In this document: in pieces, positions 1-45,076 of the stretch
How the letters are laid out: each line of letters opens with the position of its first letter
Position numbering within the stretch: position 1 is the stretch's first letter
From: a virus
Taxonomy: Duplodnaviria > Heunggongvirae > Uroviricota > Caudoviricetes
Virus record (IMG/VR): IMGVR_UViG_3300025896_000021
Direction: 5' to 3' (one strand)
DNA: 64,000 nt
Made by a program: the position numbers and the translations under genes
Notes under the pieces: generated by a model
What the model saw: the letters and a program-made list of their open reading frames with translations, nothing else
What the model was told of the DNA's origin: nothing
Databases searched by the model: none

Positions 1-3000
1 AGCACCATCCGTTTTCAATATTTGATTATCATTGCCGCCGCCGATGTATACATTGCTGATGTTGCTACCTAAATTAGCACCAGTGAGAGTTACAATTCTG
101 CCTGTCGTAAATGTATTTGTTGTTTTATTAAAAACTAAATTTGCGCTAGCGCCTAATACGCCACCGTCATTAAATTGAATTTGCGTGTTGCTACCGGTAG
201 CTGACACTCCGCCGCCGCCTGCTGCTGCTCCCCAACTTAAATTACCAGTACCGTCTGTAGTGATAAAATATCCAGCTTCCCCGCCCGCGATCTTGACATT
301 ACCAACGTCACCTAAACTTACATTTGCACCAGTGAAACTAATGTCACCCGAAGATGTTATTGTTCCATTACCAAGCACTGTGTTTGCTGTTGCGTTCCCT
401 ACAGTTAATGTAGTTAGTGTACCTAAACTTGTGATATTAGCTTGTGCATTTCCTGTTACAGAAGAAGCAGTTATCGCGGTGATGCTTGTTAGAAATGCTC
501 CACTACCGGTAAAGTAGTTAGCAGATACATTATTACCTAAATTAGCATTGCCTGCTGTTAAGTTACCAGTATATGTAGGTAGATAAGCTGCAACGTTACT
601 GTCAGTATAATTAGAGCCGCTAGCAATTCCAGTTAGTAAACTACCGTTACCAATAAAGTAATTAGCAGTTACTGCATTACCTAGGTTAGCATTAACCGAA
701 GTAATATTTCCATCGGTTATTAAGTTTCCGCCGGTTACGTTGCCATTTGCTGATACAACGCCGGTTACTGTTAACCCAGTTGAAGCAATACTTACGATAG
801 TCGTACCGCCTGATGGGGTATCTAAATCTCTAATGGTTGAGCCAACTCTAAAGTCTATAGCAGCGTTAGAATAAATTAAGGCGGCGCTGCCTGTGACAGC
901 TCGCATACCCATACCGTTTGTGCCGTCATTGCCTTTGACCTGTATTAAAGAAGTAGCATTTAATCCGTTGGCTTTAGCAAATATGCTAGAATATTGTGTT
1001 GTAGTTACAGTACCATATGAATTACCAACAGCTAAATCAGTTAGTGTACCAACTGATGTAATGTTCGGTTGTGCTGCGGTTGTTACTGTTTCCGCAGTTG
1101 TAGATGATCCAGCAGTAAGTGCATAAGTTGCATTAGCAACAGTACCGCTTACATTAGCGCCGGCTACAGCGTTTGCAGTTGTTGCAAAAGTTGCTAATCC
1201 AACTGCACCAGTTACATTAGCGCCATCCACAGCATAAGATGTTGCAGACGTAATTGCATACGTTGCGTTAGCTACTGTACCAGTTACATTAGCACCTGCT
1301 ACTGCATTGGCTGTCGTTGCAAAAGTTGCTAGCCCGACCGTACCACTTACATTAGCACCTGCGACTGCATTGGCTGTCGTTGCATATGTTGCAAGGGAAA
1401 CAGCACCGGTTACGTTAGCTCCTGCTACTGCATACGCACTAGCAGCTATCGTTGCGGACGAAGCAATACCTGTTAAGTTACCAACGATTGTTTTGTTAAA
1501 GTTCCATGTATCAGATGATGAGGTGTATAAAATTGTAGCTGCTGCACCTGCAACAGTAATACCTGCACCATTAGCTGCCGAAGCTGTAGCAGCATCTTTA
1601 GCAACAGTAATATTTAAATCAGTTACTGATAAAGTTGTCGCATTGATTGTAGTGGTAGTACCATTAACTGTTAAGTTGCCGCCTACTGTGATATCACCTG
1701 ATGTAGCTAAACTAGTTAATGTACCAACACTAGTGATATTTGATTGTGCGCTTGCTGTCACTGTAACTGCGGTGGTAGATGTCCCTGCTGCGATCCCAGT
1801 TAACTGACTACCATTACCTATGAAGAATGCAGCAGTTATATTAGCCGATGCAGTAAAAGTATTAGCAGTAATTACATTAGCGCCGGTGATGTTGCCACCA
1901 CTACCCGATGTAGAGATATTACCAGCGACAACGTTACCCGTTACTGTCAATGCAGTCAATGTACCGGTTGATGTTATGTTAGGCTGTGCCGCAGTTGTTA
2001 CTGTACCAGCGGTAACTGAGTATGTTGCATTAGCTACTGTACCTGATACATTAGCACCAGCTACTGCATTTGCTGTTGTTGCAAAAGATACTGCACCACT
2101 TACATTAGCACCTGTTACTGCGTTAGCTGAAGCTGCAACTGTCGCACTTGAAGCGAGTCCAGTTAGATTACCGATGAAGTTAGTAGCTGTTATATTACCA
2201 GTGTATGTCGGTAAGTAAGCTGCAACATTGCTGTTACTATAACTTGCCGGCAAACCAGTTAACTGACTACCATTGCCAATGAAGAATGCAGCAGTTATAT
2301 TAGCTGATGCATTCATTGTAGTCGCAGTAATTACATTAGCGCCGGTGATGTTGCCACCACTACCCGATGTAGAGATATTACCAGCGACAACGTTACCCGT
2401 TACCGCTAGAGAAGTTAATGTTCCAACACTAGTAATATTGGGTTGTGCTGCAACTGTTACGTTACCTGCATAATTAGCAAAGTTTGATCCAGTAGCGACG
2501 AGTCCGGTTAGTAAGCTGCCGTTACCAACATAGAAGTTCGCTGATATATTCCCAGTAACTGTTAGTTCAGTTAATGTACCTACACTAGTGATATTAGGTT
2601 GAGCATTTGTATATACTGTTGCGGTTACTAAAGCGTTACCTACTTGACCAGTTACATTAGCACCGGCTACTGCATATGCAGTACCACTAGTAATTGCATA
2701 CGTTGCATTAGCTACTGTACCAGTTACATTAGCACCGGCTATCGCAGATAACCCGCTGCCGTTTCCAACAAAGTTAGTAGCAGTTAATGTATTTGTAGTG
2801 GTATCAAATGTTAGATCGGCGCTGCCTGCAAAGCTACTAGCATTATTGAACTGAACTTGAGTATTTGATCCAGCAGCAGAAGAAGTGAACGCATAAGCAC
2901 TTCCATTCGCATACAATATATTATCAGTTTTTATGTTACTTACGGTTACGCTGTTGGCACTAAGATTAGGAACAGTCAACGTACTAGTTACAGCATTAAA

Positions 3001-3081
3001 TGATGATTGTATCTCAGTTAATACAGCCAAAGTAATACTATTAGCATTTACGCCTGATCCGGGAATTTTTGTTAGTGCCAT
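1..3081 (-). CDS. Repeat-rich virion fibre protein (3' end runs off the window; absent from the ORF track)
   Basis: ATG at 3081 (MALTKIPGSGVNANS...) and an open frame to base 1. Carries AQPNITSVGTL, 'F.GNGS.LTG', 'GSNTQVQFN' and 'ANAVAGANV' repeats shared with the other fibre genes. CTAAATA promoter motif at 3113-3119. Confidence 0.8.
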   Translation of the reverse strand, partial: MALTKIPGSGVNANSITLAVLTEIQSSFNAVTSTLTVPNLSANSVTVSNIKTDNILYANGSAYAFTSSAAGSNTQVQFNNASSFAGSADLTFDTTTNTLTATNFVGNGSGLSAIAGANVTGTVANATYAITSGTAYAVAGANVTGQVGNALVTATVYTNAQPNITSVGTLTELTVTGNISANFYVGNGSLLTGLVATGSNFANYAGNVTVAAQPNITSVGTLTSLAVTGNVVAGNISTSGSGGNITGANVITATTMNASANITAAFFIGNGSQLTGLPASYSNSNVAAYLPTYTGNITATNFIGNLTGLASSATVAASANAVTGANVSGAVSFATTANAVAGANVSGTVANATYSVTAGTVTTAAQPNITSTGTLTALTVTGNVVAGNISTSGSGGNITGANVITANTFTASANITAAFFIGNGSQLTGIAAGTSTTAVTVTASAQSNITSVGTLTSLATSGDITVGGNLTVNGTTTTINATTLSVTDLNITVAKDAATASAANGAGITVAGAAATILYTSSSDTWNFNKTIVGNLTGIASSATIAASAYAVAGANVTGAVSLATYATTANAVAGANVSGTVGLATFATTANAVAGANVTGTVANATYAITSATSYAVDGANVTGAVGLATFATTANAVAGANVSGTVANATYALTAGSSTTAETVTTAAQPNITSVGTLTDLAVGNSYGTVTTTQYSSIFAKANGLNATSLIQVKGNDGTNGMGMRAVTGSAALIYSNAAIDFRVGSTIRDLDTPSGGTTIVSIASTGLTVTGVVSANGNVTGGNLITDGNITSVNANLGNAVTANYFIGNGSLLTGIASGSNYTDSNVAAYLPTYTGNLTAGNANLGNNVSANYFTGSGAFLTSITAITASSVTGNAQANITSLGTLTTLTVGNATANTVLGNGTITSSGDISFTGANVSLGDVGNVKIAGGEAGYFITTDGTGNLSWGAAAGGGGVSATGSNTQIQFNDGGVLGASANLVFNKTTNTFTTGRIVTLTGANLGSNISNVYIGGGNDNQILKTDGA
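1796..2403. repeat. Intragenic direct repeat (~148 bp, offset 459 bp)
   Basis: 1796-1944 is near-identical to 2255-2403; 1865-1944 and 2324-2403 are identical over 80 bp. Confidence 0.9.
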
Positions 3082-3190
3082 TCGTGTTACCTTAGTATAT
3101 AGTTACAATATGTATTTAGTCAATAACAAATCAAAGTGACATCACAATAACTAATGCTTAAAATATTGACAATATCGTACAGTGAGTACT

Positions 3191-6100
3191 TTAACTCCAA
3201 TATTGTTGATTAGTCACCGTAGATGTTTCACTCGACAGAATTGGTGAACCATCAGTTGCTGCATAGGTAGTAGCTGAAAGTGGAGTCACTGTCGATAAGT
3301 TAGTGAAGTCGTCTCCTATCACCCTAGAAGCCGCCGCAGATGCTATTACCGTAATAGATTCCGTTAAAGTCGTATTGCTTTCAGGATTAGTAGCAGTTAG
3401 TAATGTTTGTTTAGGACCAAATCCATCCCCGATATCAATAGATGCAAATCCATTAATCAGTACAAATAATCCGTTACTAGCTGCTACAATACTGCTATCC
3501 ACTGAATTTGTTGCAGTAACTATACAAGATAAAGTCTTGAATCCATCAGTTAATAATGTAGTGTATGTATTGTTAGTAGATCCTGAAATATTGACTCCAT
3601 TAACATTCCATTGGTATGAATATACAATCGTGGCGTCTCCGGTCCAAGTCCCTGGGTTACACAACAAAACAGCATTTGCTAGCCCGTTAGTGACAGAGCC
3701 TGATGATACTGAAATTGAGGGTACAACTGTGTTAACCGGAGCTCCCGCAGTGCCTGTTTGAAATACACCCGAGCTTGACCATTTATATATTCGGTATCCA
3801 CCTGTAACGACGGGATAACCGGCATCAACGTTCAGTGCAGCAAGTGCTTCTGGATAACTATCTGGATACCGAATCACTACGATACCCGATCCACCCGTGC
3901 CACCAGCATTAGTTGCATTATAATAAGATCCGCCACCGCCACCTCCACCAGTAGATGCACCCCCATTACCACCCGGAACATTTGACTGACTACTTAATGT
4001 CCCTGCGCCGCCGGCTGTGCCAGTAGAAATGCCGCCGGTGCCCGCGGCGCCACCACCACTAACGCTAGGTGCGCCACCACCGCCGCCACCAGCTCCACCG
4101 GTACCCGCATTACCAGAATAACCGGCTCCGCCGCCGCCTCCACCCCAATAGTAACTAGTACCTAAGATTGCATTAATTAGTCCTATTCCACCATTACCGG
4201 GAGTGTTTTGACCGCTGCCCCCTGCGCCACCACCACCACCGGGATAATTTAATAAGCCAGCGCCGCCACGATTTCCTTGATCAGTTGTTCCCAATCCTGC
4301 GGTTAAGTAAACACTGCTGCCGCCACCGCCGGAGCCGCCGGATTGAGCTGCACCGCCAGCAGACCCGCCTGCGCCGCCACCGTATGCTATTATGTTGCTA
4401 AATGAAGATTTTCCTCCACTGCTGCCCGGCAAAGAAGTAGCTCCAGCAGGTGATCCGGTGCCGCCGGCTCCAACTGTAATTACGTATCTACCTTTTTGTA
4501 GATATAGTGGGTCAGCTGGTGATGCTACATCAACTGATATTGCCGGATAAGCGCGGGTGGGTCCCCAAACAATTCTCACGGCGCCGCCGCCGCCCATGCC
4601 GCCTCCAGTAGATGTTCCCGAGCCACCGCCACCACCGCCATAAGCACCACCAGTAATTGTTCCCTTAGTACTGGTACTTGAGCCGCCCGCTTCGCCTGGA
4701 TTTCCGTCTGCTCCGCCTGAGCCGCCTTTGCCACCAGACGTGCCGTTACCAGTAGCTGCACCACTTGCACCTTGACCAAGTATGCCCACGCCGCCGCCTG
4801 CAGGTGTACCGTATGTACTAGAATAATACCCAGGTGCGCCACCACCACCGCCTGCAGGTGCTGCTGTACCAGTCGAGCTTCCACCGTAGCTGTCGGCGCC
4901 GCGTCCAGCATATCCGCCAGCACCAGCACCAGCATAATTCCACGATCCATCAAACGCACCATTGCCGCCGCGGCCGCCGCCGTCACCAACATAGCCACCG
5001 CCATAGCCTGGTGTTGCCCCGGTTGAGTTTGCTCCACCGCGGCCGCCGCCGTATCCTGCTACTGTAGTTAATGCATCAAAATAACTATTACCGCCTTCAG
5101 CTCCAGCAGTAGTTGCATTAGCTAAACTTGCTCCGCCTGCCCCAACTACAACTGTGTATGATTGTCCCGGTACTACGGTGATGGCAGTTTTCCATCCAAG
5201 GCCACCACCACCACCGCCGCCAGAACTCCAAGTTTGTCCGCCGCCCCCACCACCACCAACAGCTACTACGCTGACTGATGTTATACCGGCTGGCGCGACC
5301 CAAGTATATGTTCCCGGAGTAGTATATGCTCGTTGGCCTGCTGTACCTCCGGGGCCGGGTGCTGTGGCTGCTAATACTCCGCCTGCACCGCCGCCACCAC
5401 CCAAATCAGATCCACCACCACCACCACCACCAACCACCAAGTATTCAATATAAGCACTTCCAGTAGCAGCTACGAAAATACTGTTTGATGTTTCAATGAC
5501 GCCGCCTTCTATATCGGTTGCAATAACATTACATGTAATTGTTGTATCACCATCTGCCATCACTGTAGTATAGGTACTAGATGTTGCGCTGCTTATATTA
5601 ACGCCGCCGCGTTGCCACTGATACGAGTAGGATATTGAGTTGCTACTTGTCCAAGTACCGGTTGTTGCAGTTAATACTTGATTCACCCCTGCAGTGCCGG
5701 ATATGACCGGTGCAACGGTATTCACCGGGCCTGGCGACATAAGAGTAATCGTACCAGAGGTAGTAAATGTGTATATTCTATATGAGCCGGAAATAGTTAT
5801 AGCAGGCGATCCGGTCGTTTTTGCTACAGGGAAAGTGCTTTGCTGTCGCACTACAACAATACCAGAGCCACCGGCACCTGAACCGGAAGACCAGCCACCG
5901 TTAGTAGCCCAGTAAGATCCAGCTCCGCCGCCACCGCCTGTATTGACAACCGCAGTCGGGATGCCACTGCCCTGAGTAGTGGCATTTACTTCATTTGTGT
6001 ATACGTTATAGTTGTAGTAAGTGGTTGTTCCAGCACCGCGGCCGCCGCCATGATAGCCATCGCCGGCTCGTTCACTACTATTACCACCACCACCACCACC

Positions 6101-7819: not shown

Positions 7820-7833
7820 AAAATTCCCTTACT

Positions 7834-9273
7834 TTACGCGACTCTAACTAACCACATGTCGTCATTGAGTACAAAGGGCAAGTAAGCATCACCATTAATA
7901 TTGAATGTCTGATTTGCCGCTTGCCAATACAATTTCATAGTTGCATAGGGCATACTTAAACTTTTATATATTCCTCGGCACGCACCGCCTGGATTCCAGG
8001 CACCGTTAAAACATCTACTAATTTTAATAGGATATGCTCCCGGAACTTGCATCCCAGTTGTAGTATCATACTGTGGCATATATAGCATATTGAGACTATT
8101 ACCCGTTTCACCGTTAAAGTAGGAACCGCCCATTGATCTAGTAGTAAAAAGTGGACCATCTAACATTTTATAGGCCGTGGAATAAGAATTAGGTTGCCAA
8201 CCAACTTCACTACTGTTTCTACCACCAGAATTTATATTACTGCCGAAAAATAAAGGGTTCATGTAAGTATTAGTTGTTACATAAATCTGTGCAGTTGTTG
8301 TTACTATCCCGCTATTGTTAATAGTTGCCATTGAAGCTGCTACTTGATTGTGTGAGTAAGGTTGACCGGTGGTGCCAGCTGCTGTTGCTCCTGTATCTCC
8401 TGTATGTTGCCAACATGTCCATGGTACATTGTTTGTTAATGTGTTTTCCCAAGGCTGAGTTTCACGCAGACCCATGTAATAAATACTGGCCCATCTAGCA
8501 TTACCCCAACCAGTAGTACCATTGCCTAGTGTAGTAGTATTAAAATACCCAGTAGCATATGAGTCGCCCACTTTGCTTTCCCAAATAATGCAGTAATCAG
8601 CAGTTATTGCCATGTGATACTGTATCGAAATGTCAGTATAGACTAACCCAGGGCCCTGATTGTATGTATTGCCAGCGGCGTGGGTATTTTGATTTAATGT
8701 GTATGATGTTGATTGAATATCCGGTCTATTTGGTTGGGTAGTATTAACCCCGCCCCCAGGTGGAAATGTAGTAGAGGTCCAATCTGTGCTGCTACTTGCC
8801 CCAAAGGTAATTAACATATTAGCAGCTTTATTGACAGTAATGGCTGTTTTACTTGTTCCACCGTACCCTTGGGCCCAGGCGATGCCATCGATATTTTCAT
8901 TATAACTATGAAAACATAGTTTTTTATACGGGAATGTACTTTTTCCCGAAGCATTGTAAAAATCAGCTTTATACAAATATGACGCAGCAGTTGGTAGTGC
9001 AGTATACGCTGCTGGAGTATTTGATAAAGATGATATCACATTGTGGCTGGCACTAGTGATCCACCCACCTGCTTCGGTATTTGAGTCAATGCTAATGATA
9101 CAGTTTTTAGTAGTGTCAATTGTATTACTAGCTGTAAATGGATTAACTGTTAGTGAAGTAGTTCCTGCAGCGGCCGTAGCAATTGCTGTAACGCATCGCA
9201 AAAAGTTCATGTAACATGCAGTTACATCCGTTGCTGAGGCGTTGTTAATTGTTGGTTGAAAGGTAACTATCAT
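7834..9273 (-). CDS. Hypothetical virion structural protein (fibre-tip candidate)
   Basis: 479-aa Thr/Asn/Gly/aromatic-rich ORF inside the fibre array. Confidence 0.6.
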   Translation of the reverse strand: MIVTFQPTINNASATDVTACYMNFLRCVTAIATAAAGTTSLTVNPFTASNTIDTTKNCIISIDSNTEAGGWITSASHNVISSLSNTPAAYTALPTAASYLYKADFYNASGKSTFPYKKLCFHSYNENIDGIAWAQGYGGTSKTAITVNKAANMLITFGASSSTDWTSTTFPPGGGVNTTQPNRPDIQSTSYTLNQNTHAAGNTYNQGPGLVYTDISIQYHMAITADYCIIWESKVGDSYATGYFNTTTLGNGTTGWGNARWASIYYMGLRETQPWENTLTNNVPWTCWQHTGDTGATAAGTTGQPYSHNQVAASMATINNSGIVTTTAQIYVTTNTYMNPLFFGSNINSGGRNSSEVGWQPNSYSTAYKMLDGPLFTTRSMGGSYFNGETGNSLNMLYMPQYDTTTGMQVPGAYPIKISRCFNGAWNPGGACRGIYKSLSMPYATMKLYWQAANQTFNINGDAYLPFVLNDDMWLVRVA

Positions 9274-9277
9274 AATT

Positions 9278-10117
9278 TTAATCCACTAATAAAGAAATAT
9301 CATTAACTGTCAATCTATAAAAATTAGAAGCATCTTTATAAATTTGCACTCCACTAAAACTTAAGTAAGGAATACGGTAACACCCGTACATTAAGTTAGT
9401 GGCACCTGAAGAAGTAGTAAATAACGGGTTTTCAAATATAACAGTTATTCCTTTGCCTCCGGATTTGCGCGAAGTTTGTGCACCAGTTATACCCGAAGTT
9501 ACCGTGGAGTAACTAGCAGTATCATAATTGTACGTGTATGGGATCGTGCCTCCGGTATTTGCAAAAACACCTTGACTTAGTACTCCCCAATTTGGGACAT
9601 TACCAAAGTCTTGCAACATCATAAGCATACTATTGGTATATGCACGAGTAGTGCTACTGTGACCTATGTCAACGATACCAATCATTGAGCCACTTTGAGG
9701 AGCAATAAACACTAGCACCTTATTGGTAACAATAATATCAATACCGTTTTGTAGTGATGAGTTAAAAGTAAACATTTGCATGTTCACGGTAACGGCTGAA
9801 CTGTTTACTAAAGTGTCGGTTCCGCTAGTATAACTCTGCGCTAGGCTCAACGTGGTCATTTTAGTTGAATCAAAGGTCAATCTAAAATAATGTGTGTATC
9901 CAGTGATACTGTTATGCGCTTTGCTATATGTGTATGTTCCTGCATTTACTTTATTGTAAATTGCCGGGGTATATGCTCCGTATACCGAGCAGTTTGGTTT
10001 GTCTGCACCCGAACTCAAATCGGCTGTTGTAACAATGTTACCAAGAATGATGTTATTAATATCATCCTTGAAGTTTTGTATTGTACATGAACTGTTTAAT
10101 CTATATCTTACTAGCAT
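9278..10117 (-). CDS. Hypothetical virion structural protein
   Basis: 279-aa beta-rich ORF, tightly packed against its neighbours. Confidence 0.6.
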   Translation of the reverse strand: MLVRYRLNSSCTIQNFKDDINNIILGNIVTTADLSSGADKPNCSVYGAYTPAIYNKVNAGTYTYSKAHNSITGYTHYFRLTFDSTKMTTLSLAQSYTSGTDTLVNSSAVTVNMQMFTFNSSLQNGIDIIVTNKVLVFIAPQSGSMIGIVDIGHSSTTRAYTNSMLMMLQDFGNVPNWGVLSQGVFANTGGTIPYTYNYDTASYSTVTSGITGAQTSRKSGGKGITVIFENPLFTTSSGATNLMYGCYRIPYLSFSGVQIYKDASNFYRLTVNDISLLVD

Positions 10118-10120
10118 GGG

Positions 10121-10432
10121 TTACCCTTCTGTTGGGGGTGTTGATTCTTCAGCAACTGGTAATTGCTCAATCACTATATCCGGAATCAGATCAGTAATCA
10201 ATTCAAAATCTGTTGAGTTATTGAGATTTTCAACTGAGTTAGCATAAATCACAGTTACATTAAATATTGGTAATTCAATTACTATTGTATTCAATAAATT
10301 AGTAGCCACTGAGATGGCAAACGCATCAGTTATATAATGCGCTGTGCTTTCTCCATCAGGGACGGTGCCGGCGTATCTATATACATATCCGTGAGTTGCT
10401 TGGAATAGTCGCTGAAAAAAATCTTTATTCAT
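10121..10432 (-). CDS. Small hypothetical protein
   Basis: 103-aa ORF with ATAAATA 5 nt upstream of the ATG. Confidence 0.6.
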   Translation of the reverse strand: MNKDFFQRLFQATHGYVYRYAGTVPDGESTAHYITDAFAISVATNLLNTIVIELPIFNVTVIYANSVENLNNSTDFELITDLIPDIVIEQLPVAEESTPPTEG

Positions 10433-10437
10433 ATGTA

Positions 10438-10444
10438 TATTTAT
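10438..10444 (-). promoter_or_regulatory. gp55-type late promoter
   Basis: ATAAATA 5 nt before the ATG at 10432. Confidence 0.6.
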
Positions 10445-10445
10445 C

Positions 10446-13400
10446 TTAGTAAGAGTACTTGAGTTTAATGCTCAAATCAGAGCCATTAACGCCTGTAATA
10501 TCTAATGTCAGGTAATCTGCGGTAGTCAATGTAACATTCACTGAAACCGGAGTCATAACAACCCCTGACATTGTAAATGTAGTTCCTATACTAACGCCGT
10601 TCTTTTTAATAATAAAAGTAAAATTACCAGCTGGGGCAGTACCCAAATTTGCATATACCGTAGTTATGACAATAGTACTGACCGGGTAATATCTAGCTGT
10701 TCCGGTTACCGGAGCAGTTATAGATCCGGGCATGTTCAAGTTCACATAAACCGGTGGGGCTGTCACTGTTGCAGATTTTGTATTTCTCCACTGCGTGCCA
10801 TTCCATAGATAGATAGTATCAGAATCGGACGAGTAACTAATGTCACCAACTTTGTTACCAACTAATGGGAGATAGCTTGCATCTTCTACGATAGTAACAC
10901 TTGGTACAACAACTACGCCATCGCCTGCGACTAATGTTGCAGTACCAGCTACTTCACGAATCTTATTCTTAAAGCTAGGTGTATTTTCTACATAGGTAGC
11001 CAAGTCTTGCGGTACGAATTTTCCAACAGAGGCGTCGTATACCACGCACATTTGATTTACTAAACTTGGAATAGGACGAATCTCAATCGGAGTCTTGTGC
11101 CCTTCGCCACCATGTTGTATGTATAAAACATAGTTACCGTCAATATTAGTCTCTACTGCTAATGGCTTAATAGTAATCGCGCCTCGTCTAGCAAAAGTAG
11201 TTGCTGACTGATAATAAAGCGTAGTTGGTGCTCCAACTGGTACAGTAAAGACTAGTGTTGTTTTACCCACTGAGCCGTTATTCCTGCTACCAGTAACACC
11301 AGTAGTGTACTCACCGAAGTAAGCATTTGCTACCCAATTTGTTCCATTGTCTGTAGTCAAGTATAACGGGTCGTTAACTAGATCACTAGCTAAGTTGAAT
11401 GTGTAAGTACCTGTCTCTCGCACAGGGCCTAGATTTTTGTTAGGATATCCAGCCGAGGGGCTAGCAATAGTATATACATCCGGTGTGCTCGCACTAATCG
11501 AATAAGATACAATAGGTGCAACAAGTGTAGGTGGAGTTACTACTTCCGGTACTGAAATATTATATCGTTGCACTGAAGTCGATGCACCACCGTTGATATC
11601 GGGATGTGTCATCGAGACATTACCGGCAGCTACTGCCCAACTTACATTGTTTTGTGACCCTGCGCCGTCGATCCATTTTAGTGCTACACCATGTCGCTGT
11701 GTCATATTACCAGTTTGCTCATTAGCAAAGTTGTTAAGCTGATATAAGCCTTTTTTATACATTGGTACGCTTACTTGCGGGCTGTTCGTGATAGTTGTAC
11801 GAGCATACGGTAATGTACTAGTTGCCCAAGTCCACAACCAAGGAATGTCTGAACCGGGTTCAGGTGCAGCAATTTGAATTTCTAATACTTCAGGTGCAAT
11901 GACTAGATTGAATGGGAATACATTTGCAGATGAGAATGGGGTATTACCTAAATAGATTGTACTGTTACTTAGATATAGGTCTTTCCAACGTTGTGTAGGA
12001 CTTCCAATATCATACGTGATATTCGCAGAAGGTAAAAGATTACCTGTAATATTGCCTGAAATACTGAGACTAGTTAATGTACCTACACTAGTGATATTTG
12101 GTTGAGCATTGGTGTATACAGTAGATGCAGCAGCAATTTGTCCGGGCACAATAGTAGTTACTTCTATCAATGCACCATTCACGGGTGCATCAGTAAAAGT
12201 CAGTGTCGTACCACTCACTCCGTATGCTTGTCTTAGTTGTGATACACCATCGATGTTAACTGATACATATTTAATATTACCTGGAGCCACACTCATCGTG
12301 TATGCAGTTTGAACACCATTAGCCGTGAAGTTATCTACTGATACATCACCTGCAGTTACTGTAGCAGATGCTGGTGCTGCCCATGTCAAGTTTCCAGTAC
12401 CGTCAGTTTGCAACGTATAATTAGCATTACCACCCGATATATGTACATTACCAATATTACCCAATGTTACTGACCCAGTGACGGTAAGGCTGGTCAATGT
12501 ACCGATGCTAGTAATATTAGGTTGACTATTAGTTACTACACTTCCGACAAAGTTTGCATAATTAGAATTAGTAGCAGTAGTAGCAATAAGTCCAGTTAAT
12601 TGACTACCGTTACCAATGTAAAAGTTAGCTGATACATTACCAGTAACGTCTAAACTAGTTAATGTACCTACACTAGTGATATTTGGTTGAGCATTTGTAT
12701 ATACTGTACCCGTTACTAGAGCATTCGCTACTTGACCCATTACATTAGCACCTGCTACTGCATTAGCTGTAGCTGCATAAGTAACTGCTCCGATTACATT
12801 AGCACCTGCTACTGCATTAGCTGTAGCTGCATAGCTAACTTGACCAGTAACGTTTCCACCTTGAATATTACTTAATAAATTACCACTACCAGTAAAGTAG
12901 TTTGCACTAACATTATTACCAAGACTTGCATTACCACTAGCAATGTTGCCAGTAACGTCTAAACTAGTTAATGTACCTACACTAGTGATATTTGGTTGAG
13001 CATTCGTGTATACTGTGGCCGCAACAAGGGCATTACCGACTTGACCTATTACATTGCCACCGGTTATATTAGTTATACCAGAACCATTAGTAACTAAGTT
13101 AGTAACAGTAAGAGTGTTGGTTGTTTTGTCAAAAGTTAGATTGCCGCTAGCAGCAAAGCTACCCGCATCATTAAATTGAACTTGAGTATTAGTGCCGGCT
13201 ACAGAAGTTGTAGTTCCCATTGACCATGCTGTACCATTTGCGTACAGTAAGTGGTCCGTTTTGATGTTACCAGCAGTAACATTGCTAGTGACAGATAGAT
13301 TTCCTAATGTACCTACACTAGTAATGTTAGGTTGACTAGTAGTTATTAATGTGCCTGTTACGTAATTTGCAGTTGCGAGATTACCTAAGTTAGCATTAGC

Positions 13401-13490
13401 TGATGTTAAATTCCCCGTAACGGTGACATTACCAAACACAAAGTCTTGTGTACTATCTACTACGGAGGGTTTTATTTTTTGTAATGCCAT
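10446..13490 (-). CDS. Modular fibre protein with repeat shaft, connector domain and degenerate cupredoxin-like domain
   Basis: N-term MALQKIKP; several AQPNITSVGTL repeats; 'VDNFTANG...LTFTDAP' domain; 'GNLLPSANITYDIGS...WKDLYL' motif; 'LVFTVP..APTTLYY' segment. Confidence 0.75.
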   Translation of the reverse strand: MALQKIKPSVVDSTQDFVFGNVTVTGNLTSANANLGNLATANYVTGTLITTSQPNITSVGTLGNLSVTSNVTAGNIKTDHLLYANGTAWSMGTTTSVAGTNTQVQFNDAGSFAASGNLTFDKTTNTLTVTNLVTNGSGITNITGGNVIGQVGNALVAATVYTNAQPNITSVGTLTSLDVTGNIASGNASLGNNVSANYFTGSGNLLSNIQGGNVTGQVSYAATANAVAGANVIGAVTYAATANAVAGANVMGQVANALVTGTVYTNAQPNITSVGTLTSLDVTGNVSANFYIGNGSQLTGLIATTATNSNYANFVGSVVTNSQPNITSIGTLTSLTVTGSVTLGNIGNVHISGGNANYTLQTDGTGNLTWAAPASATVTAGDVSVDNFTANGVQTAYTMSVAPGNIKYVSVNIDGVSQLRQAYGVSGTTLTFTDAPVNGALIEVTTIVPGQIAAASTVYTNAQPNITSVGTLTSLSISGNITGNLLPSANITYDIGSPTQRWKDLYLSNSTIYLGNTPFSSANVFPFNLVIAPEVLEIQIAAPEPGSDIPWLWTWATSTLPYARTTITNSPQVSVPMYKKGLYQLNNFANEQTGNMTQRHGVALKWIDGAGSQNNVSWAVAAGNVSMTHPDINGGASTSVQRYNISVPEVVTPPTLVAPIVSYSISASTPDVYTIASPSAGYPNKNLGPVRETGTYTFNLASDLVNDPLYLTTDNGTNWVANAYFGEYTTGVTGSRNNGSVGKTTLVFTVPVGAPTTLYYQSATTFARRGAITIKPLAVETNIDGNYVLYIQHGGEGHKTPIEIRPIPSLVNQMCVVYDASVGKFVPQDLATYVENTPSFKNKIREVAGTATLVAGDGVVVVPSVTIVEDASYLPLVGNKVGDISYSSDSDTIYLWNGTQWRNTKSATVTAPPVYVNLNMPGSITAPVTGTARYYPVSTIVITTVYANLGTAPAGNFTFIIKKNGVSIGTTFTMSGVVMTPVSVNVTLTTADYLTLDITGVNGSDLSIKLKYSY

Positions 13491-13495
13491 ACTTG

Positions 13496-13502
13496 TATTT
13501 AG
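13496..13502 (-). promoter_or_regulatory. gp55-type late promoter
   Basis: CTAAATA 5 nt before the ATG at 13490. Confidence 0.6.
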
Positions 13503-13509
13503 CTAACCC

Positions 13510-14880: not shown

Positions 14881-14902
14881 TTTTATTCTTCTTTTAATTA
14901 AG

Positions 14903-14933
14903 TAGTATCGGGCACCCCGGCACCTCGATACTA
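14903..14933 (-). terminator. Intergenic stem-loop (terminator or processing element)
   Basis: TAGTATCG...CGATACTA stem, extended by G-U pairs on the minus strand, between 14880 and 14948. No clear U-tract. Confidence 0.45.
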
Positions 14934-14947
14934 TGCCATACGTAGTA

Positions 14948-17470
14948 TTAAACGTTAGTTAACAACCAGCCCTGAGTGCTATTGTAATATGCTAATGTAA
15001 ATGCTGCTCTATCAGTAGTAACTACCATATCGCTTGCATCACCTTGAATCTTGCCACCGTTACGTGCAATAGTGATAGCATGAGTGCTTGAATTACCAGT
15101 ACCATCGATGATAGAAATTTCGTCACCTAATGTAGCGGTAGCAGGCAAAGTCAATGTAATGTTTGCAGTTGTTGTGTCTACGATATACTTATATGCAACA
15201 GCCATTGATACGTTAGCAGTTACTTCAGAGTAAGTATAGCTTACACCACCACCGCCGCCGCCGCTACCACCAGTGCCGCCAGTAACAGTTGTAATTTCAA
15301 CTGTTGCTCCTGTTGGAGGGGCTTCACTGAATGTAATAACCGCTGCCAATACACTGTATGTGCTTCTTGGTTGCAATACACCACCGATAGCTACGATTGT
15401 ATAATCAACACTTGCAGGAGTAGCAGCTAGTGTCTTCATTGTCCAGCTACCGTCACCAGTGAATGTATCTACAATCATAGTAGTAGTTGACAATGCTGTC
15501 CAACTTAAGTTACCTGTTCCGTCAGTCTTCAGCACATAGTCTGCACTACCACCTGAGATTGCGATATTAGCTACTGCACCTAAGTTAGTAGTACCGGATA
15601 CTGCTAAACTAGTTAATGTACCAACGCTTGTGATTCCAGTTTGTGCTGCTGTAGTCAAATTACCTGCAACAGATGTTGCAGTCACTACGTTAGTAGTGAT
15701 ACCGGTCGCTGTTACAATAACTACGTTACCAGTCCCACCAACTGCCATAGTAATATTACCATTAGCTGTCGTAATGTCTACATTACTTGTTCCGTTTGCT
15801 GTCTTTGTTGCAGTACCGCCTGAAGCAACAACACCTGTCAATAGACTACCGTTACCAATGAAGTAATTAGATGTTACTGCGTTACCTAGATTTGCATCAC
15901 CTGCTTTAATTTTACCTAATGTACCGACAGTTACTGTATTGTCAGTTACTGAAACATTGCTAGCAAAGGTGAACTCTTTATCAGTGTTCATCCAACCCAT
16001 GAACGCATCTTTCACACCACCATCATAGTAATGTAATAACTGACCACGTTCTTTACCATCATTAGTTGATAACACAGCACCGTTCGCGCCACCACCCAGT
16101 TCAAAGATAGGGTCTACGATTTGCGTTACAGTTGAGTTAACTGTAGTTGTTGTTCCGGTAACAGTCAAGTTACCTGCGATAGTAGTATCACCTGAAGTAA
16201 GTGATCCAGTAACAGCCAGTGAAGTTAATGTACCGACAGACGTGATATTTGGTTGTGCAGCAGTATATACAGTACCCGCAACTAATGCGTTACCAACTTG
16301 TCCAGAAACGTTAGCTCCTGCTACTGCATTAGCTGTAGCTGCAAATGCAACTTCACCTGTTACGTTAGCACCAGCAACTGCATTAGCTGTAGCTGCAAAT
16401 GCAACTTCACCTGTTACGTTAGCACCAGTGATACTGCTCAATGCACTACCGTTACCAATAACGTAACTACCTGTTACGTTACCTGACGCAGTGATATATC
16501 CTGTAGCATTCACTCCAGTTGCAGTTACGGTCACTACATCTGCTGTACCGCCGATGCCAATTGTGACATTTCCATTAGCAGTTGCGATATTTACATTACT
16601 TGTTCCGTTTGCTGTCTTTGTTGCAGTACCACCTGAAGCAACAACACCTGTCAATAGGCTACCGTTACCAGTGAAATAACTTGCTGATACGTTGCCAGTA
16701 ACATCTAAACTAGTTAGTGTACCAACACTAGTAATAGCGGGTTGTGCAGCAGTATATACTGTACCTGCAACTAATGCATTACCTACTTGACCGCTTACAT
16801 TAGCACCTGCTACTGCATTAGCTGTAGCTGCAAATGCAACTTCACCTGAAACGTTTGCACCAGCAACTGCATTAGCTGTGCCTGCATATGTTGCATTAGC
16901 TACAGTGCCAGTTACATTAGCGCCGGCGATAGCAGATAAACCTGAACCATTACCTGCAAAGTTAGTAGCAGTCAATGTATTTGTGGTCGTGTCAAATGTT
17001 AAATTAGCACTACCTGATAGATTGGTTCCATCATTGAATTGAATCTGAGTATTACTTCCACCTACATTAGCATTACCTGTACCAGATGCTGCTGCTCCCC
17101 ATGTCAAGTTACCAGAACCGTCTGTTTTTAATACATATCCAGTAGTACCGCCAGTAATCTTAACGTTAGCGACTGCACCTAAATCAGTTGCACCTGATAC
17201 TGTCAAGCTAGTTAATGTACCAGTACTCGTAATATTAGGCTGAGCAGCAGTATATACTGTTCCAGCTACTAATGCATTACCAACCTGACCGGTTACATTA
17301 GCACCGGTTAGTGAAGTAAGTAAACTTCCATTACCGCTGAAGTAGTTAGATGTTGCTAAATTGCCTAATGTGGCATTTCCTGCAACTAGATTGCTAGTGA
17401 TATTCGCATTCGCAAACGTGAATAATTCAGCAGTATCAATACTGAACGGTTTAATTTTTAAAATTGACAT
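14948..17470 (-). CDS. Modular fibre protein
   Basis: N-term MSILKIKP; 18-aa ANAVAGANV.GEVAFAAT repeats; 'DPIFELGGG...RG.LLHY...FMGW' module; 'VDTFTGDG...ITFSEAPP' domain; C-terminal 'VDTT...LTLP...GDEI.IID...GWLL' domain. Confidence 0.75.
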   Translation of the reverse strand: MSILKIKPFSIDTAELFTFANANITSNLVAGNATLGNLATSNYFSGNGSLLTSLTGANVTGQVGNALVAGTVYTAAQPNITSTGTLTSLTVSGATDLGAVANVKITGGTTGYVLKTDGSGNLTWGAAASGTGNANVGGSNTQIQFNDGTNLSGSANLTFDTTTNTLTATNFAGNGSGLSAIAGANVTGTVANATYAGTANAVAGANVSGEVAFAATANAVAGANVSGQVGNALVAGTVYTAAQPAITSVGTLTSLDVTGNVSASYFTGNGSLLTGVVASGGTATKTANGTSNVNIATANGNVTIGIGGTADVVTVTATGVNATGYITASGNVTGSYVIGNGSALSSITGANVTGEVAFAATANAVAGANVTGEVAFAATANAVAGANVSGQVGNALVAGTVYTAAQPNITSVGTLTSLAVTGSLTSGDTTIAGNLTVTGTTTTVNSTVTQIVDPIFELGGGANGAVLSTNDGKERGQLLHYYDGGVKDAFMGWMNTDKEFTFASNVSVTDNTVTVGTLGKIKAGDANLGNAVTSNYFIGNGSLLTGVVASGGTATKTANGTSNVDITTANGNITMAVGGTGNVVIVTATGITTNVVTATSVAGNLTTAAQTGITSVGTLTSLAVSGTTNLGAVANIAISGGSADYVLKTDGTGNLSWTALSTTTMIVDTFTGDGSWTMKTLAATPASVDYTIVAIGGVLQPRSTYSVLAAVITFSEAPPTGATVEITTVTGGTGGSGGGGGGVSYTYSEVTANVSMAVAYKYIVDTTTANITLTLPATATLGDEISIIDGTGNSSTHAITIARNGGKIQGDASDMVVTTDRAAFTLAYYNSTQGWLLTNV

Positions 17471-17494
17471 GAAAGTTCCCTTTTCTCTTTATTA

Positions 17495-17501
17495 TATTTA
17501 T
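17495..17501 (-). promoter_or_regulatory. gp55-type late promoter
   Basis: ATAAATA in the intergenic gap before 17470. Confidence 0.55.
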
Positions 17502-17505
17502 CTGT

Positions 17506-17856
17506 TTATGGTGTAGTTAGTTCTACCCAATTTAATGCATCTTCATCCCAAGTATACATTTTACCTTCTACTACGGGCATTGCTACTGGAGCACCCCATA
17601 CACATGTTGATTCGTTCAATAACCAACTATTGAATGGCTGAGGTGCATAAAATGCATCTCGTTCACTATCGTATGTATAACCAATTCCAGCGTAGTTCTT
17701 ACGCAATGGAGTTCCACCGTTGACGTGTTCGCCACCGTATGTATTATAGCTAGTTTGTACCCAGCCTGTTCCAAATAACCCAGTATCGATCACATCTTGT
17801 TCTGCTACGATGACTTGTGTTACTGTTCCGTTTTCTACTTTTGCAAAATGACTCAT
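17506..17856 (-). CDS. Small protein typically found next to Gly-rich fibre proteins (possible fibre chaperone)
   Basis: Start re-set to MSHFAKVENG (AAAGGA RBS). 'WVQTSYN...RKNYAGIGYTYD..RDAF..PQP..SW' is a motif set I recall from uncultured phages. Confidence 0.7.
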   Translation of the reverse strand: MSHFAKVENGTVTQVIVAEQDVIDTGLFGTGWVQTSYNTYGGEHVNGGTPLRKNYAGIGYTYDSERDAFYAPQPFNSWLLNESTCVWGAPVAMPVVEGKMYTWDEDALNWVELTTP

Positions 17857-17870
17857 ATTATTTCCTTTAT

Positions 17871-18731
17871 TTAAAATGTGATTGAACCTGAGCTGGTCCA
17901 TGCGTAAATCCTATATCCACCTGAAACTGTTATTGTCGGCGATCCCGTTGTAGCTGCTGCTGATGCATGGGTGTCTGCGTAACGAATGATAACGATACCG
18001 GAGCCACCGGAGCCGCCCGGTAGAACAGCAGTAGAATAACCGCCGCCCCCGCCACCGCCGCCAGTATTAGTAGTTCCCGGCGATGCTGTAAAATTTAAAC
18101 CACCGCCTTTGCCACCTCCACCAGTACCTCCAGAACTTTGCCCGGTGTAGCCACCGCTGCCGCCTCCACCTGCATAAGTTACCGAAGCCCCGGATATCAG
18201 TGAAGTCAGCCCGTTTCCGCCTAACCCAGTTCCTACAGCGCCGCCACCTTCAGCCCCGACTGCGCCAGCGCCACCACCGCCGCCTGCATAATAATTACCA
18301 CCCCCGGTAAATCTTCCGCCATTTTTGCCTTGACCAACAATACCGGTGCCGCCAAGAATAGCTACTTGATCGTTAGTACCAGCGCCGCCACCTGATCCAC
18401 CATTTTTACCAGCCGCTGATCGGGCGTCATTACTTGGACCGCCACCGCCGCCGGCTGTTGCAATTATACTACTAAACCCCGAATCATTTCCATTATTAGT
18501 ACCAGCGCCACCGGTTAATCCAGTGCCACCTGCACCTACAGTGACTGTCAACTCAATTCCAGGGGATATAGCAAATCCAGTAGCGGTTAAATAGCCGCCC
18601 GCGCCACCGCCGCCACCATATGCGCCACCTGATCCGCCGCCAGCAACCACTAGATATTCCACTGGTATACTAGATGACCCAACTGATAATGATATGCCAC
18701 CGCCAAAAGTTATTCCTGCTCCGATATTCAT
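17871..18731 (-). CDS. Single glycine-rich domain protein (adhesin candidate)
   Basis: 'VEYLVVAGGG...GSGIVIIRY...TSSGSITF'. Confidence 0.75.
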   Translation of the reverse strand: MNIGAGITFGGGISLSVGSSSIPVEYLVVAGGGSGGAYGGGGGAGGYLTATGFAISPGIELTVTVGAGGTGLTGGAGTNNGNDSGFSSIIATAGGGGGPSNDARSAAGKNGGSGGGAGTNDQVAILGGTGIVGQGKNGGRFTGGGNYYAGGGGGAGAVGAEGGGAVGTGLGGNGLTSLISGASVTYAGGGGSGGYTGQSSGGTGGGGKGGGLNFTASPGTTNTGGGGGGGGYSTAVLPGGSGGSGIVIIRYADTHASAAATTGSPTITVSGGYRIYAWTSSGSITF

Positions 18732-18732
18732 G

Positions 18733-19704
18733 TTAACTTAGCCCCAATGTAGTGATTTCAATGAATGCAGTATCAGGTGGTGCCGAACTAAACGTAAGCA
18801 CTGCTCCTTCAAGTATGTAAGCACTCTTTGGTTGCATAATACCCTGAATCACAGCGAATGTAAAGTTCTTACTTGTTGGGATAACAGACAATACAAATTG
18901 TGTTTGTATACCAGTTCCAGTAAACTCATCTACCGCAGAACTTAATGTAGGTGCTGCTGGAGTGTTGAAACTTAGCACACCACTACCGTTAGTAGTTATT
19001 ACTTGTCCATTACTTCCACCAGTAATTGTAATGTTACCAATAGCTCCTAAATTAGTAGATCCTGATACGCTTAAGTTAGCTAGTATTCCGACACTAGTAA
19101 TATTTGGTTGTGCGTTTGATGTTACTGTTGCTGCACTTGATGCAGCGACGCCGGTCAATGAACTACCATTACCAACGAAATAGCTAGCTCTTAAATTACC
19201 TAAAGTGTTTATGGTAACTGCGTTGTTATTGACGCTTGCGTTACTTGCAAATACGAATTCACTGTTAGCAGTTTGCCAACCCATGAACGCATCCACTGCA
19301 GCGGTAGTATAATAATGAAGTAATGTACCGCGATCTTTATTATCGTTAGTCGTTAGCGGGGTACCGTTAGCGGCTCCACCTTGTTCAATCAATGCATCTT
19401 TGACGTACAAGTTAGTTACGTTGACGTATTCGACATTGCCGCCAACAGTTAAATTACCAGAGATAGCAGTATCACCGGTTACTGTTAGTAAACTAGTTGC
19501 ACTATCAAACGTGAAGTTGCTATTAGCACCCAATGCTCCTGCATTGTTATACTGAATATAAGTATTGCTACCCGCAGCAGATGCTACAGCAGAACCACCG
19601 GTTAGTGCCGCGTCAACATATGATTTAGTTGCCGCGTCAGTACTATCAGTTGGGCCGGATAGATTCTTAAGCTGCGTCGGTGAGGGGAATATTAATGCTG
19701 CCAT
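18733..19704 (-). CDS. Fibre segment/connector protein
   Basis: 'PTDSTDAATKSYVD' neck motif; 'DALIEQGG...RG.LLHY...FMGW' module; C-terminal 'VDEFTGTG...LTFSSAPP' domain. Confidence 0.7.
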   Translation of the reverse strand: MAALIFPSPTQLKNLSGPTDSTDAATKSYVDAALTGGSAVASAAGSNTYIQYNNAGALGANSNFTFDSATSLLTVTGDTAISGNLTVGGNVEYVNVTNLYVKDALIEQGGAANGTPLTTNDNKDRGTLLHYYTTAAVDAFMGWQTANSEFVFASNASVNNNAVTINTLGNLRASYFVGNGSSLTGVAASSAATVTSNAQPNITSVGILANLSVSGSTNLGAIGNITITGGSNGQVITTNGSGVLSFNTPAAPTLSSAVDEFTGTGIQTQFVLSVIPTSKNFTFAVIQGIMQPKSAYILEGAVLTFSSAPPDTAFIEITTLGLS

Positions 19705-35633: not shown

Positions 35634-35660
35634 ATGTCTTTCTCTAAGTTATATAGCTAT

Positions 35661-38228: not shown

Positions 38229-38248
38229 TTTATTTTTCCTTATTCTTA

Positions 38249-38953
38249 TTATGCTTTATAGCTTGTTACCAAAATCTTATAATTTGTCAAGTGAGCAGTT
38301 TGAGGTGTAACTGTTAATGTCACATTACCCCCAAAGTTACCCGGCTCGAAATTAACCTTAAAATCACCTACGCCCGGACTTGTCACTGGCGCATCGATTG
38401 TACCGTACTCATAGTACCCAACATCATTACCCAACACACTAGCAATCAATTTACTAGTCTGTCTAGTGTTTGCAACACCATCAGTTGCAATAATCGTATA
38501 ATCCATTGAACATACAGTTGGTGCTGATATTTTATGTAGCACTTGGTCAGCCGTCACACTATTAGTAGTAGCAATGAATGATGAAATTGTATAGAATTGA
38601 CTTTCACCCAATCCTAATGAGAAATTATTTGCAGTTAAGTTTTCTTCAACTGTAACTGATTTTGTATCTGGATTATACTTGATACTATCTGCGGTAGCTG
38701 CTAAGCCATAGCTGTTAAACAGCAATGCATTGTTAGGTCCAGTGATAGTGATATTAGCAGAAATGTTGCCCTGCAAGTTACCGTAAAAGTTAGTAGCTGC
38801 AATAGCGCCGGACACTGAAAGGTTACCGCCCACGACAAGATTGCCTGATATCGTAGCTTTAGGAGCCGTGATATTTCCGCTAGTATCTATGATGTTTACC
38901 GGGGGTATTCCTGTAGAAAAACCGCCCGCTGAATTGAATGCATCTGCTGCCAT
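38249..38953 (-). CDS. First (proximal) fibre/adaptor protein
   Basis: Start re-set to MAADAFNSAGG. First gene after the capsid-gene terminator, with its own ATAAATA promoter motif (38981-38987). Confidence 0.7.
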   Translation of the reverse strand: MAADAFNSAGGFSTGIPPVNIIDTSGNITAPKATISGNLVVGGNLSVSGAIAATNFYGNLQGNISANITITGPNNALLFNSYGLAATADSIKYNPDTKSVTVEENLTANNFSLGLGESQFYTISSFIATTNSVTADQVLHKISAPTVCSMDYTIIATDGVANTRQTSKLIASVLGNDVGYYEYGTIDAPVTSPGVGDFKVNFEPGNFGGNVTLTVTPQTAHLTNYKILVTSYKA

Positions 38954-45068: not shown

Positions 45069-45076
45069 AGTGTATA

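What the first reader, a model, noticed from the sequence alone, without database searches (positions are those of the whole stretch)
1..19704. A fifth pair type that skips genes suggests branch points carrying adhesin side-arms
Seen: a ~65-aa domain 'VD.FT..G.....L...P......V.I.G..Q....Y......(L/I)TF..AP......E.TT' occurs three times (C-term of 18733-19704; internal in 14948-17470 and 10446-13490). Three downstream genes begin with a 'L.KI(K)P' peptide (17470 MSILKIKP, 13490 MALQKIKP, 3081 MALTKIP), one after each copy. Between these backbone genes sit Gly-rich, IPT and hypothetical genes. The two proteins with an internal copy also carry a second, different C-terminal domain. Inference: the internal domain continues the backbone and the terminal domain docks a side-arm (e.g. 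'GWLLTNV' domain to the 'MANYHSLK' start of 14880), giving a branched, multi-adhesin distal structure.
Basis: partly seen in the sequence, partly recalled or inferred. Interest (0 to 1): 0.8.

Follow-up and report, generated by a model that had tools for sequence, protein, structure and literature searches.

The report
Socket-and-plug joints chaining phage tail fibres
Three tail-fibre proteins of an uncultured jumbo phage carry a known "branching" domain in their far half, and each is followed by a fibre gene with a matching conserved start peptide, so the fibres most likely plug into one another in gene order to form a long branched fibre.

Summary
The window holds exactly three copies of the ~65-aa domain, exactly three genes with the conserved N-terminal peptide, and they alternate.

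- **The domain is not new.** It belongs to the superfamily of T4 gp10 XD2/XD3, T7 gp17 N-terminus and DUF4183, the known branching/docking module of CBA120, G7C, RaK2 and KP32. The second C-terminal domain of the 840-aa protein is an XD1/gp9-type domain.
- **The arrangement is new.** Here the sockets sit in the distal half of non-enzymatic fibres. The partner is a 24-aa N-terminal "K-plug", found as 75 genes and 52 variants in 78 related metagenomic loci.
- **Support is comparative only.**
  - Socket sequence co-varies with the next plug (Mantel r 0.61). It co-varies much less with its own protein's start (0.20) or with a physically closer intervening gene.
  - In two relatives whose fibre module is fully covered, sockets and plugs balance exactly (6:6).
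  - The XD1 tail predicts the next gene's start in 9 of 9 cases.
- **Not tested.** Physical docking was not tested. The 3' end of gene 1-3081 could not be seen.

Verdict: a new variant of a known kind. The scan had noted this same stretch in an overlapping window; a look-up by sequence found no look-alike in other genomes.

The parts
18733..19704 (-). 323-aa connector protein: own N-terminal plug of another type, a short shaft, and a C-terminal XD socket with only 3 residues after it
   Evidence: orthologues in L001-L004
18745..18939 (-). XD socket copy 1 (residues 256-320)
   Evidence: HMM E 2e-28; DUF4183 weak hit 17.5 bits
17871..18731 (-). 286-aa Gly_rich_2 protein, an optional intervening gene (absent in L002)
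17506..17856 (-). ~117-aa 'HFA' protein (phrog_7759, unknown function). The true start is probably the internal Met at 17856. It recurs directly upstream of K-plug genes
14948..17470 (-). 840-aa backbone fibre: K-plug, shaft, XD socket, Gly linker, C-terminal XD1-type domain
17399..17470 (-). K-plug 1 (first 24 residues)
   Evidence: plug HMM E 5e-12
15284..15478 (-). XD socket copy 2 (residues 665-729)
   Evidence: HMM E 4e-28; the AF2 model of this part matches T7 gp17 N-terminus at Z 8.4-8.7
14951..15238 (-). XD1/gp9-type C-terminal domain ending in the LLTNV tail
   Evidence: phmmer vs 7REJ residues 74-176, E 5.6e-13; VIA Z 17.5, rmsd 1.2 over 100 residues
13510..14880 (-). 456-aa side-arm: MANY-type plug, TIG, He_PIG and Gly_rich_2 domains
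   Evidence: this plug follows the LLTNV-type tail in 9 of 9 loci
10446..13490 (-). 1014-aa backbone fibre: K-plug, shaft, internal XD socket, then a 567-aa distal region
13419..13490 (-). K-plug 2
   Evidence: plug HMM E 1.5e-12
12150..12344 (-). XD socket copy 3 (residues 383-447)
   Evidence: HMM E 3e-26
7834..10432 (-). three accessory genes (103, 279 and 479 aa). In relatives they travel with the distal-tip module that here ends the 1014-aa protein
   Evidence: the same trio follows a like-ending tip in L001, L006-L009, L012 and L066
3191..7819 (-). 1542-aa protein with five Gly_rich_2 stretches; intervening, attachment unknown
1..3081 (-). fibre of at least 1027 aa starting with K-plug 3; its 3' end lies outside the window
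   Evidence: plug HMM E 4e-5

Best explanation
This is the distal tail-fibre module of an uncultured jumbo myovirus of the RaK2/PA5oct/Vibrio 2.275.O lineage.

Each ~65-aa domain is a small beta-sandwich of the gp10 XD2/XD3 and T7 gp17 N-terminus superfamily. Its trimer most likely acts as a socket. The conserved 24-residue N-terminal peptide (K-plug) of the next backbone fibre docks into that socket, so that 323 aa -> 840 aa -> 1014 aa -> the fibre starting at 3081 join in gene order.

Whatever lies C-terminal of a socket carries its own cargo, and the genes for that cargo sit between the backbone genes. The XD1-type domain of the 840-aa protein holds the MANY-start Gly-rich/Ig protein. The distal tip of the 1014-aa protein comes with three accessory genes. 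This is why the pair 'skips' genes.

Shown here: domain identity, copy numbers, order, and co-variation. Inferred: physical docking, trimer geometry, and adhesin function.
For: **Domain identity**
- Relatives of the domain pass Pfam DUF4183 and Phage_T7_tail positions ~8-75.
- A 60-sequence profile hits the Kp7 tail adaptor (7e-10), a K1 depolymerase (2e-9) and CBA120 TSP4 XD2 residues 211-250 (2e-4).
- The AF2 model (pLDDT 79.7) matches T7 gp17 N-terminus at Z 8.4-8.7, and TSP4 XD1 at Z 17.5 for the last domain.

**Known role of the family**
- It docks trimeric partners (PMC8825819).
- Domain plus N-terminal peptide was shown essential in KP32 (PMC13352976).

**The plug is a real family**
- 75 genes and 52 variants.

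**Order**
- In 26 of 28 loci that hold both, a socket gene without a plug precedes the first plug gene (my count from the strings).
- Every plug gene without an upstream socket lies within 4 genes of a locus edge.

**Co-variation**
- Socket versus next plug: r 0.61, p 2e-4.
- Socket versus its own protein's N-terminus: r 0.20. Partial r is 0.59.
- Across an intervening gene: r 0.64, against 0.14-0.29 for that gene itself.
- The nearest relative of the third socket (63% identity, L029) is followed by a plug that shares the same opening residues, although overall plug identity is only 0.38.

**Counts**
- G001 (367 kb, complete): 6 sockets versus 5 K + 1 related T plug. G002: 6 versus 4 + 2. G005: 1 versus 1.
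- The running balance is never negative and ends at zero.
- Two-socket genes are followed by two plug genes.

**Side-arm**
- The XD1 tail type predicts the next gene's start in 9 of 9 loci.
- A changed tail occurs exactly where the side-arm gene is missing, while the socket and the following plug stay the same.
Against: - No interface was modelled or measured.
- Co-variation could partly reflect co-inheritance of neighbouring DNA.
- Loci were collected through the socket itself, which biases 'a socket lies upstream'.
- G004 has 5 sockets and only 2 plugs, and G003 has 8 versus 6 (its contig is truncated), so some sockets take other partners or none.
- The T-type plug was added to the count after seeing the data.
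- In T7 the same fold is the plug, not the socket. In TSP4 and gp10, XD1 is a spacer with no partner (PMC8825819).
- There is no significant sequence similarity to the validated KP32 pair.
Confidence: 0.65

Rival explanations
1. The sockets dock other partners (Gly-rich proteins, the HFA protein, or another XD as in TSP2-TSP4), and the K-plugs attach elsewhere, for example to a baseplate hub. On this view the order and co-variation reflect conserved synteny and linkage.
For: XD2-XD2 pairing exists in CBA120 (PMC8825819). Sockets outnumber K-plugs in G003 and G004. Gly-rich and HFA genes sit right after socket genes.
Against: The Gly-rich and HFA genes are optional: L002 has socket and plug genes adjacent. 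The socket co-varies with the plug but not with the intervening HFA gene. Sockets in unrelated host proteins cluster by the type of the following plug. Balances are exact in G001, G002 and G005.
Confidence: 0.2
2. The domain is only a structural or glycan-binding Ig-like spacer in the shaft, and the conserved start is just the cap of the shaft fold. On this view there is no docking code.
For: The fold is a common small beta-sandwich. VIA Z 6-9.5 also matches neck proteins, pilins and spore appendages. The family is huge, with 8391 clusters, often as long tandem arrays.
Against: The plug is conserved from Met1 across otherwise unrelated proteins. Socket type and plug type co-vary. Socket and plug numbers match. 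Profile links lead to proteins with a proven docking role.
Confidence: 0.1
3. The three copies and three start peptides are chance resemblances.
For: None beyond the short length of the motifs.
Against: HMM E-values are 1e-26 to 1e-28 for the domains and 1e-12 to 4e-5 for the plugs, with no other hit in six frames of 64 kb.
Confidence: 0.01

Closest known systems
CBA120 TSP4/TSP2 and G7C gp66 T4 gp10-like XD2/XD3 branching domains
   Same: Small beta-sandwich docking modules with a profile match to TSP4 XD2. They are combined with an XD1-type domain and flexible Gly linkers, and each module holds one trimeric partner.
   Different: In those phages the modules sit at the N-terminus of enzymatic tailspikes next to the baseplate anchor, in the order XD1-XD2-XD3. 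Partners bind through head domains or XD2-XD2. Here the modules sit in the distal half of non-enzymatic fibres, in the order XD then XD1, and the partner offers a short peptide.
KP32 gp37 branching domain with the gp38 conserved N-terminal peptide (PMC13352976)
   Same: A branching domain paired with a partner's conserved N-terminal peptide of about 29 aa, encoded downstream. Both elements are needed for assembly.
   Different: There is no significant sequence similarity. KP32 is a podovirus with a single branch at the tail, and the partner gene is adjacent rather than up to seven genes away.
Hyperbranched fibres of RaK2, phiK64-1 and phiKp24 (PMC10253068, PMC9700779)
   Same: The capsid lineage is the same: the best phage matches of the major head protein, at 64-67% identity, are jumbo myoviruses (Vibrio 2.275.O, PA5oct and ~350-kb E. 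coli phages; that these belong with RaK2 is from my own knowledge). The logic of counting XD domains against fibre proteins is also the same (RaK2: 8 XD for 9 proteins).
   Different: Those phages carry N-terminal XD arrays on one or two hub depolymerases. Here there are single sockets spread along a serial chain of fibres.
T4 long tail fibre (gp34-gp35-gp36-gp37) and its gp9 connector
   Same: Serial end-to-end assembly in gene order. The last domain of the 840-aa protein has the gp9/gp10 XD1 fold (Z 12.2).
   Different: T4 joints are not known to use XD2/3-type sockets. The gp9 middle domain and gp10 XD1 are regarded as spacers, not sockets.
T7 gp17 N-terminal domain (PF03906)
   Same: Same fold and the same sequence superfamily.
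   Different: In T7 it is N-terminal and is itself the plug that sits on the tail adaptor/nozzle.

Membership tests
T4 gp10-like XD2/XD3 branching domain | ~60-70-aa beta-sandwich with sequence-profile similarity to TSP4/gp10 XD2-XD3 | tested here: met
   Profile A3 versus PDB: TSP4 residues 211-250 (XD2), E 2e-4; Kp7 adaptor 7e-10. The model has long first and last strands.
T4 gp10-like XD2/XD3 branching domain | direct structural match to XD2/XD3 of 7REJ or 5IV5 | tested here: inconclusive
   VIA lists one row per entry, and the XD1 match fills the rows for 7REJ and 5IV5.
T4 gp10-like XD2/XD3 branching domain | lies in the N-terminal region of a tailspike after a baseplate anchor | tested here: not met
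   The copies are C-terminal or internal in fibre proteins.
T4 gp10-like XD2/XD3 branching domain | binds a trimeric partner protein | not testable with these tools
   Only indirect evidence: co-variation and counts.
Pfam DUF4183 / Phage_T7_tail N-terminal domain | score above the Pfam gathering threshold | tested here: inconclusive
   The window copy scores 17.5 bits against a cut-off of 25.1. Multi-copy relatives pass both families.
KP32-type branching domain + conserved peptide pair | partner has a conserved N-terminal peptide of up to ~30 aa | tested here: met
   24-aa plug family, 75 genes and 52 variants.
KP32-type branching domain + conserved peptide pair | sequence homology to gp37 domain / gp38 peptide | tested here: not met
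   The socket HMM scores 1.2 bits on gp37 residues 198-252. The plug HMM finds nothing on gp38.
TSP4 XD1 / T4 gp9 middle domain / gp10 XD1 | sequence and fold match | tested here: met
   E 5.6e-13. Z 17.5 to 7REJ, and 12.2 to both 1QEX and 5IV5.
TSP4 XD1 / T4 gp9 middle domain / gp10 XD1 | spacer with chain continuing on the far face, no partner | tested here: not met
   Here it ends the protein, and its last residues co-vary with the next gene's start.
T4-type serial long tail fibre | consecutive genes whose products join end to end | not testable with these tools
   Gene order and balance are consistent with this.

The most novel reading that the evidence does not exclude
Aquatic myophages may share a sequence-readable assembly grammar. 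Families of mutually specific socket-plug pairs (XD with K/T plugs, XD1 tails with MANY or MATTNL plugs) would fix the order and branching of many fibre proteins. A fibre tree of tens of kilobases could then be read from the genome, and the pairs could serve as orthogonal connectors.
Probability: 0.45. Interest if true: 0.7.

Novelty: new variant of a known kind. Interest (0 to 1): 0.55.

Why it matters
Host recognition by jumbo and marine or freshwater myophages is almost unknown, because their fibre genes have no annotation. If distal sockets and start-peptide plugs really pair, the architecture of these huge fibre modules could be predicted from sequence alone. It would also explain why cargo genes sit between backbone genes. 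And it would add a set of naturally diversified, apparently specific connectors to the branching-domain/peptide tools now used for phage host-range engineering.

Tried and rejected
- **3' end of gene 1-3081.** A 40-base exact match from the window start found nothing in viral or metagenome contigs, and no whole genome is held. The 3' end could therefore not be seen.
- **Near DNA match.** There is none in cultured phages.
- **Natural fusions.** I looked for proteins fusing a socket directly to a plug among 154 representatives and found none.
- **KP32 similarity.** It is not significant.
- **Antibody hits.** Many Fab light-chain hits of the profile are spurious motif matches.
- **T-plug model.** An HMM for the T-type plug bleeds into the K family, so T is best treated as a divergent K.
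- **Second AF2 job.** I left it unused, because monomer models without coordinates cannot show an interface.
- **Chance.** Rejected.
Full report
**Context.** All genes of the stretch lie on the minus strand, downstream of a T4-type head module. That module has a major head protein at 39105-40301, a prohead protease and a portal. The head protein is 64-67% identical to those of jumbo myoviruses: Vibrio phage 2.275.O, Pseudomonas PA5oct and ~350-kb E. coli phages. There is no near DNA match among cultured phages, and no whole genome is held. The window is therefore part of an uncultured jumbo myovirus whose fibre module spans at least 39 kb.

**Observation.**
- An HMM built from the three copies, and later one built from 167 copies, finds exactly three domains in six frames of the window (E 2e-28 to 3e-26). 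They lie at residues 256-320 of the 323-aa protein, 665-729 of the 840-aa protein and 383-447 of the 1014-aa protein. Nineteen columns are invariant among the three.
- A model of the start peptide finds exactly three hits, each at the first start codon of its ORF: 17470, 13490 and 3081. Purine-rich AAGG/AGGG stretches lie upstream.
- In transcription order the features alternate: socket; plug + socket; plug + socket; plug.
- The genes between them are Gly_rich_2 proteins, a TIG/He_PIG/Gly_rich_2 protein and hypotheticals.

**What the domains are.**
- The last 100 residues of the 840-aa protein match the XD1 domain of CBA120 TSP4 by sequence (E 5.6e-13).
- In an AF2 model (pLDDT 79.7), this part aligns to TSP4 XD1 at Z 17.5 (rmsd 1.2 over 100 residues). 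It aligns to T4 gp9 and to gp10 XD1 at Z 12.2.
- The ~65-aa domain aligns to the N-terminal domain of T7 gp17 and its relatives at Z 8.4-8.7, and to other small sandwiches at Z up to 9.5.
- Its family is very large: 8391 clusters at E <= 0.001, usually with 2-12 tandem copies. Members pass Pfam DUF4183 and Phage_T7_tail positions ~8-75.
- A 60-sequence profile reaches the Kp7 tail adaptor (7e-10), a K1 depolymerase (2e-9), a cyanophage fibre (9e-6) and TSP4 XD2 (2e-4).
- Within this superfamily, XD2/XD3 are the platforms on which other trimeric proteins dock in T4 gp10, G7C gp66 and CBA120 TSP4/TSP2, whereas XD1 is regarded there as a spacer (PMC8825819).
- In KP32 a gp10-like branching domain and a 29-aa N-terminal peptide of the next protein were shown by deletion to be an essential pair (PMC13352976).
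- For RaK2 and phiKp24, jumbo phages that by my own knowledge belong to this capsid lineage, XD domains were counted against fibre proteins to draw hyperbranched models (PMC10253068, PMC9700779).
The placement is not.

**Comparative test.**
- *Data set.* A scan of viral contigs returned 78 loci, 55 of them non-redundant.
- *Plug family.* The start peptide is a genuine family of 75 genes and 52 variants, conserved from Met1 over about 24 residues in otherwise diverse proteins. Most plug proteins carry sockets themselves, as a chain would need.
- *Order.* In 26 of 28 loci holding both a plug gene and a socket gene without a plug, the socket gene comes first (my count from the strings). Every plug gene lacking an upstream socket lies within four genes of a locus edge.
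- *Skipped genes.* They follow rules of their own. What stands C-terminal of the socket predicts them. An XD1 domain ending in the LLTNV-type tail is followed by a MANY-type start in 9 of 9 loci; one of these uses a GTG start. A WKVLEL-type tail is followed by a MATTNL-type start with overlapping stop and start codons. A tip like the one ending the 1014-aa protein comes with the same three accessory genes.
- *A natural control.* In L004, L014 and L039 the side-arm gene is absent and only the XD1 tail has changed. The socket and the following plug are of the same types as in the window. This assigns the socket to the K-plug and XD1 to the side-arm.

**Co-variation.**
- For 36 single-socket proteins, socket distance correlates with the distance of the next plug (Mantel r 0.61, p 2e-4). 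The correlation with the host protein's own N-terminus is far weaker (r 0.20). The partial r is 0.59.
- In 12 cases with an intervening HFA gene, the socket tracks the plug (r 0.64, p 0.001) but not the physically closer HFA gene (r 0.14-0.29, not significant). This argues against simple linkage.
- Sockets from unrelated host proteins sit together in tree order according to the following plug type (leaf order only, branch support not examined).
- The closest relative of the third window socket (63% identity, L029) precedes a plug that shares the same opening residues as the gene at 3081, although overall plug identity is only 0.38.

**Counts in whole contigs.**

| Contig | Status | Sockets | Plugs | Note |
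|---|---|---|---|---|
| G001 | 367 kb, 100% complete (CheckV) | 6 | 5 K + 1 T | each two-socket gene is followed by two plug genes |
| G002 | 35% complete (CheckV); fibre module covered | 6 | 4 K + 2 T | balanced |
| G005 | 86% complete (CheckV); fibre module covered | 1 | 1 K | balanced |
| G003 | contig ends inside the module | 8 | 5 K + 1 T | truncated |
| G004 | 60% complete (CheckV) | 5 | 2 K | surplus of sockets |

- In G001, G002 and G005 the running balance never goes negative and ends at zero.
- The surplus in G004 means some sockets take other partners or none.
- The T type was recognised after the fact. Its model overlaps the K family.

**Mechanism proposed.** A socket trimer in the distal half of each fibre binds three N-terminal plugs of the next fibre. 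The polypeptide beyond the socket (XD1, or a distal tip) carries its own cargo, which gives a branch at each joint. By my reading the model's longest strands are the first and the last. Together with a 12-residue Gly linker, this fits the knob-on-a-tether geometry described for TSP4 (PMC8825819). This geometry, the trimer state, and the adhesin role of the Gly-rich proteins are inferred.

**Limits.**
- There was no multimer modelling.
- An unchecked note of this scan on the overlapping window (e1-5712451) speaks of five sockets and five plugs in the genome.
- Loci were ascertained through the socket itself.

**Verdict.** This is a real and widely conserved feature. The module type is known; it is used here in a new position and with a new plug family. 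Docking is well supported indirectly but has not been shown.

Noticed in passing
window 17506-17901 (-): The ~117-aa 'HFA' protein (phrog_7759, no known function) sits directly upstream of many K-plug genes across loci, and also in cultured phage Melnitz. It may be a fibre assembly chaperone. The listed ORF start is probably 15 codons too early: homologues begin at the internal Met.
   Followed up: partly
window 7834-10432 and 10446-12149 (-); L001, L006-L009, L012, L066: A distal-tip module plus three accessory genes (~100, ~280 and ~480 aa) moves as a unit between hosts. It ends a K-plug fibre here but a MANY-plug protein in L001 and L003.
   Followed up: partly
G001 93680-98494; G002 30415 and 35909; G003 104113: A 'T-type' start (MTTKI.L.NI.D-like), a divergent relative of the K-plug without the proline, marks large proteins that follow multi-socket genes or sockets ending in RELPR.
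   Followed up: partly
G001 107045-110510; G002 44550-47832; G004 124814-128057: The last plug gene of each module is a small 127-141-aa protein, followed by a conserved ~950-1010-aa protein. This may be a terminal adaptor plus a receptor-binding protein.
   Followed up: no
window 17871-18731 (-) and orthologues: Small Gly_rich_2 proteins share a conserved start of their own (M.IG.GI.FG.G) but have no identified socket. Their gene is optional (absent in L002).
   Followed up: no
L091 (Methylophilales phage Melnitz, MZ577097, 97-107 kb): This cultured myophage has small proteins with 1-3 XD domains (some N-terminal), K-like starts and HFA genes. It is a possible experimental model for the grammar.
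   Followed up: partly
L068 16334-16460: The MANY-type side-arm gene there starts with GTG, so an ATG-only gene call had produced an apparent exception.
   Followed up: yes
G004 113141-120103; G002 33042-39980: Proteins ending in PFLLMGA are followed by one to four genes that start with a YKVLGQ-type peptide. This exceeds the available sockets, so these proteins may chain among themselves.
   Followed up: no
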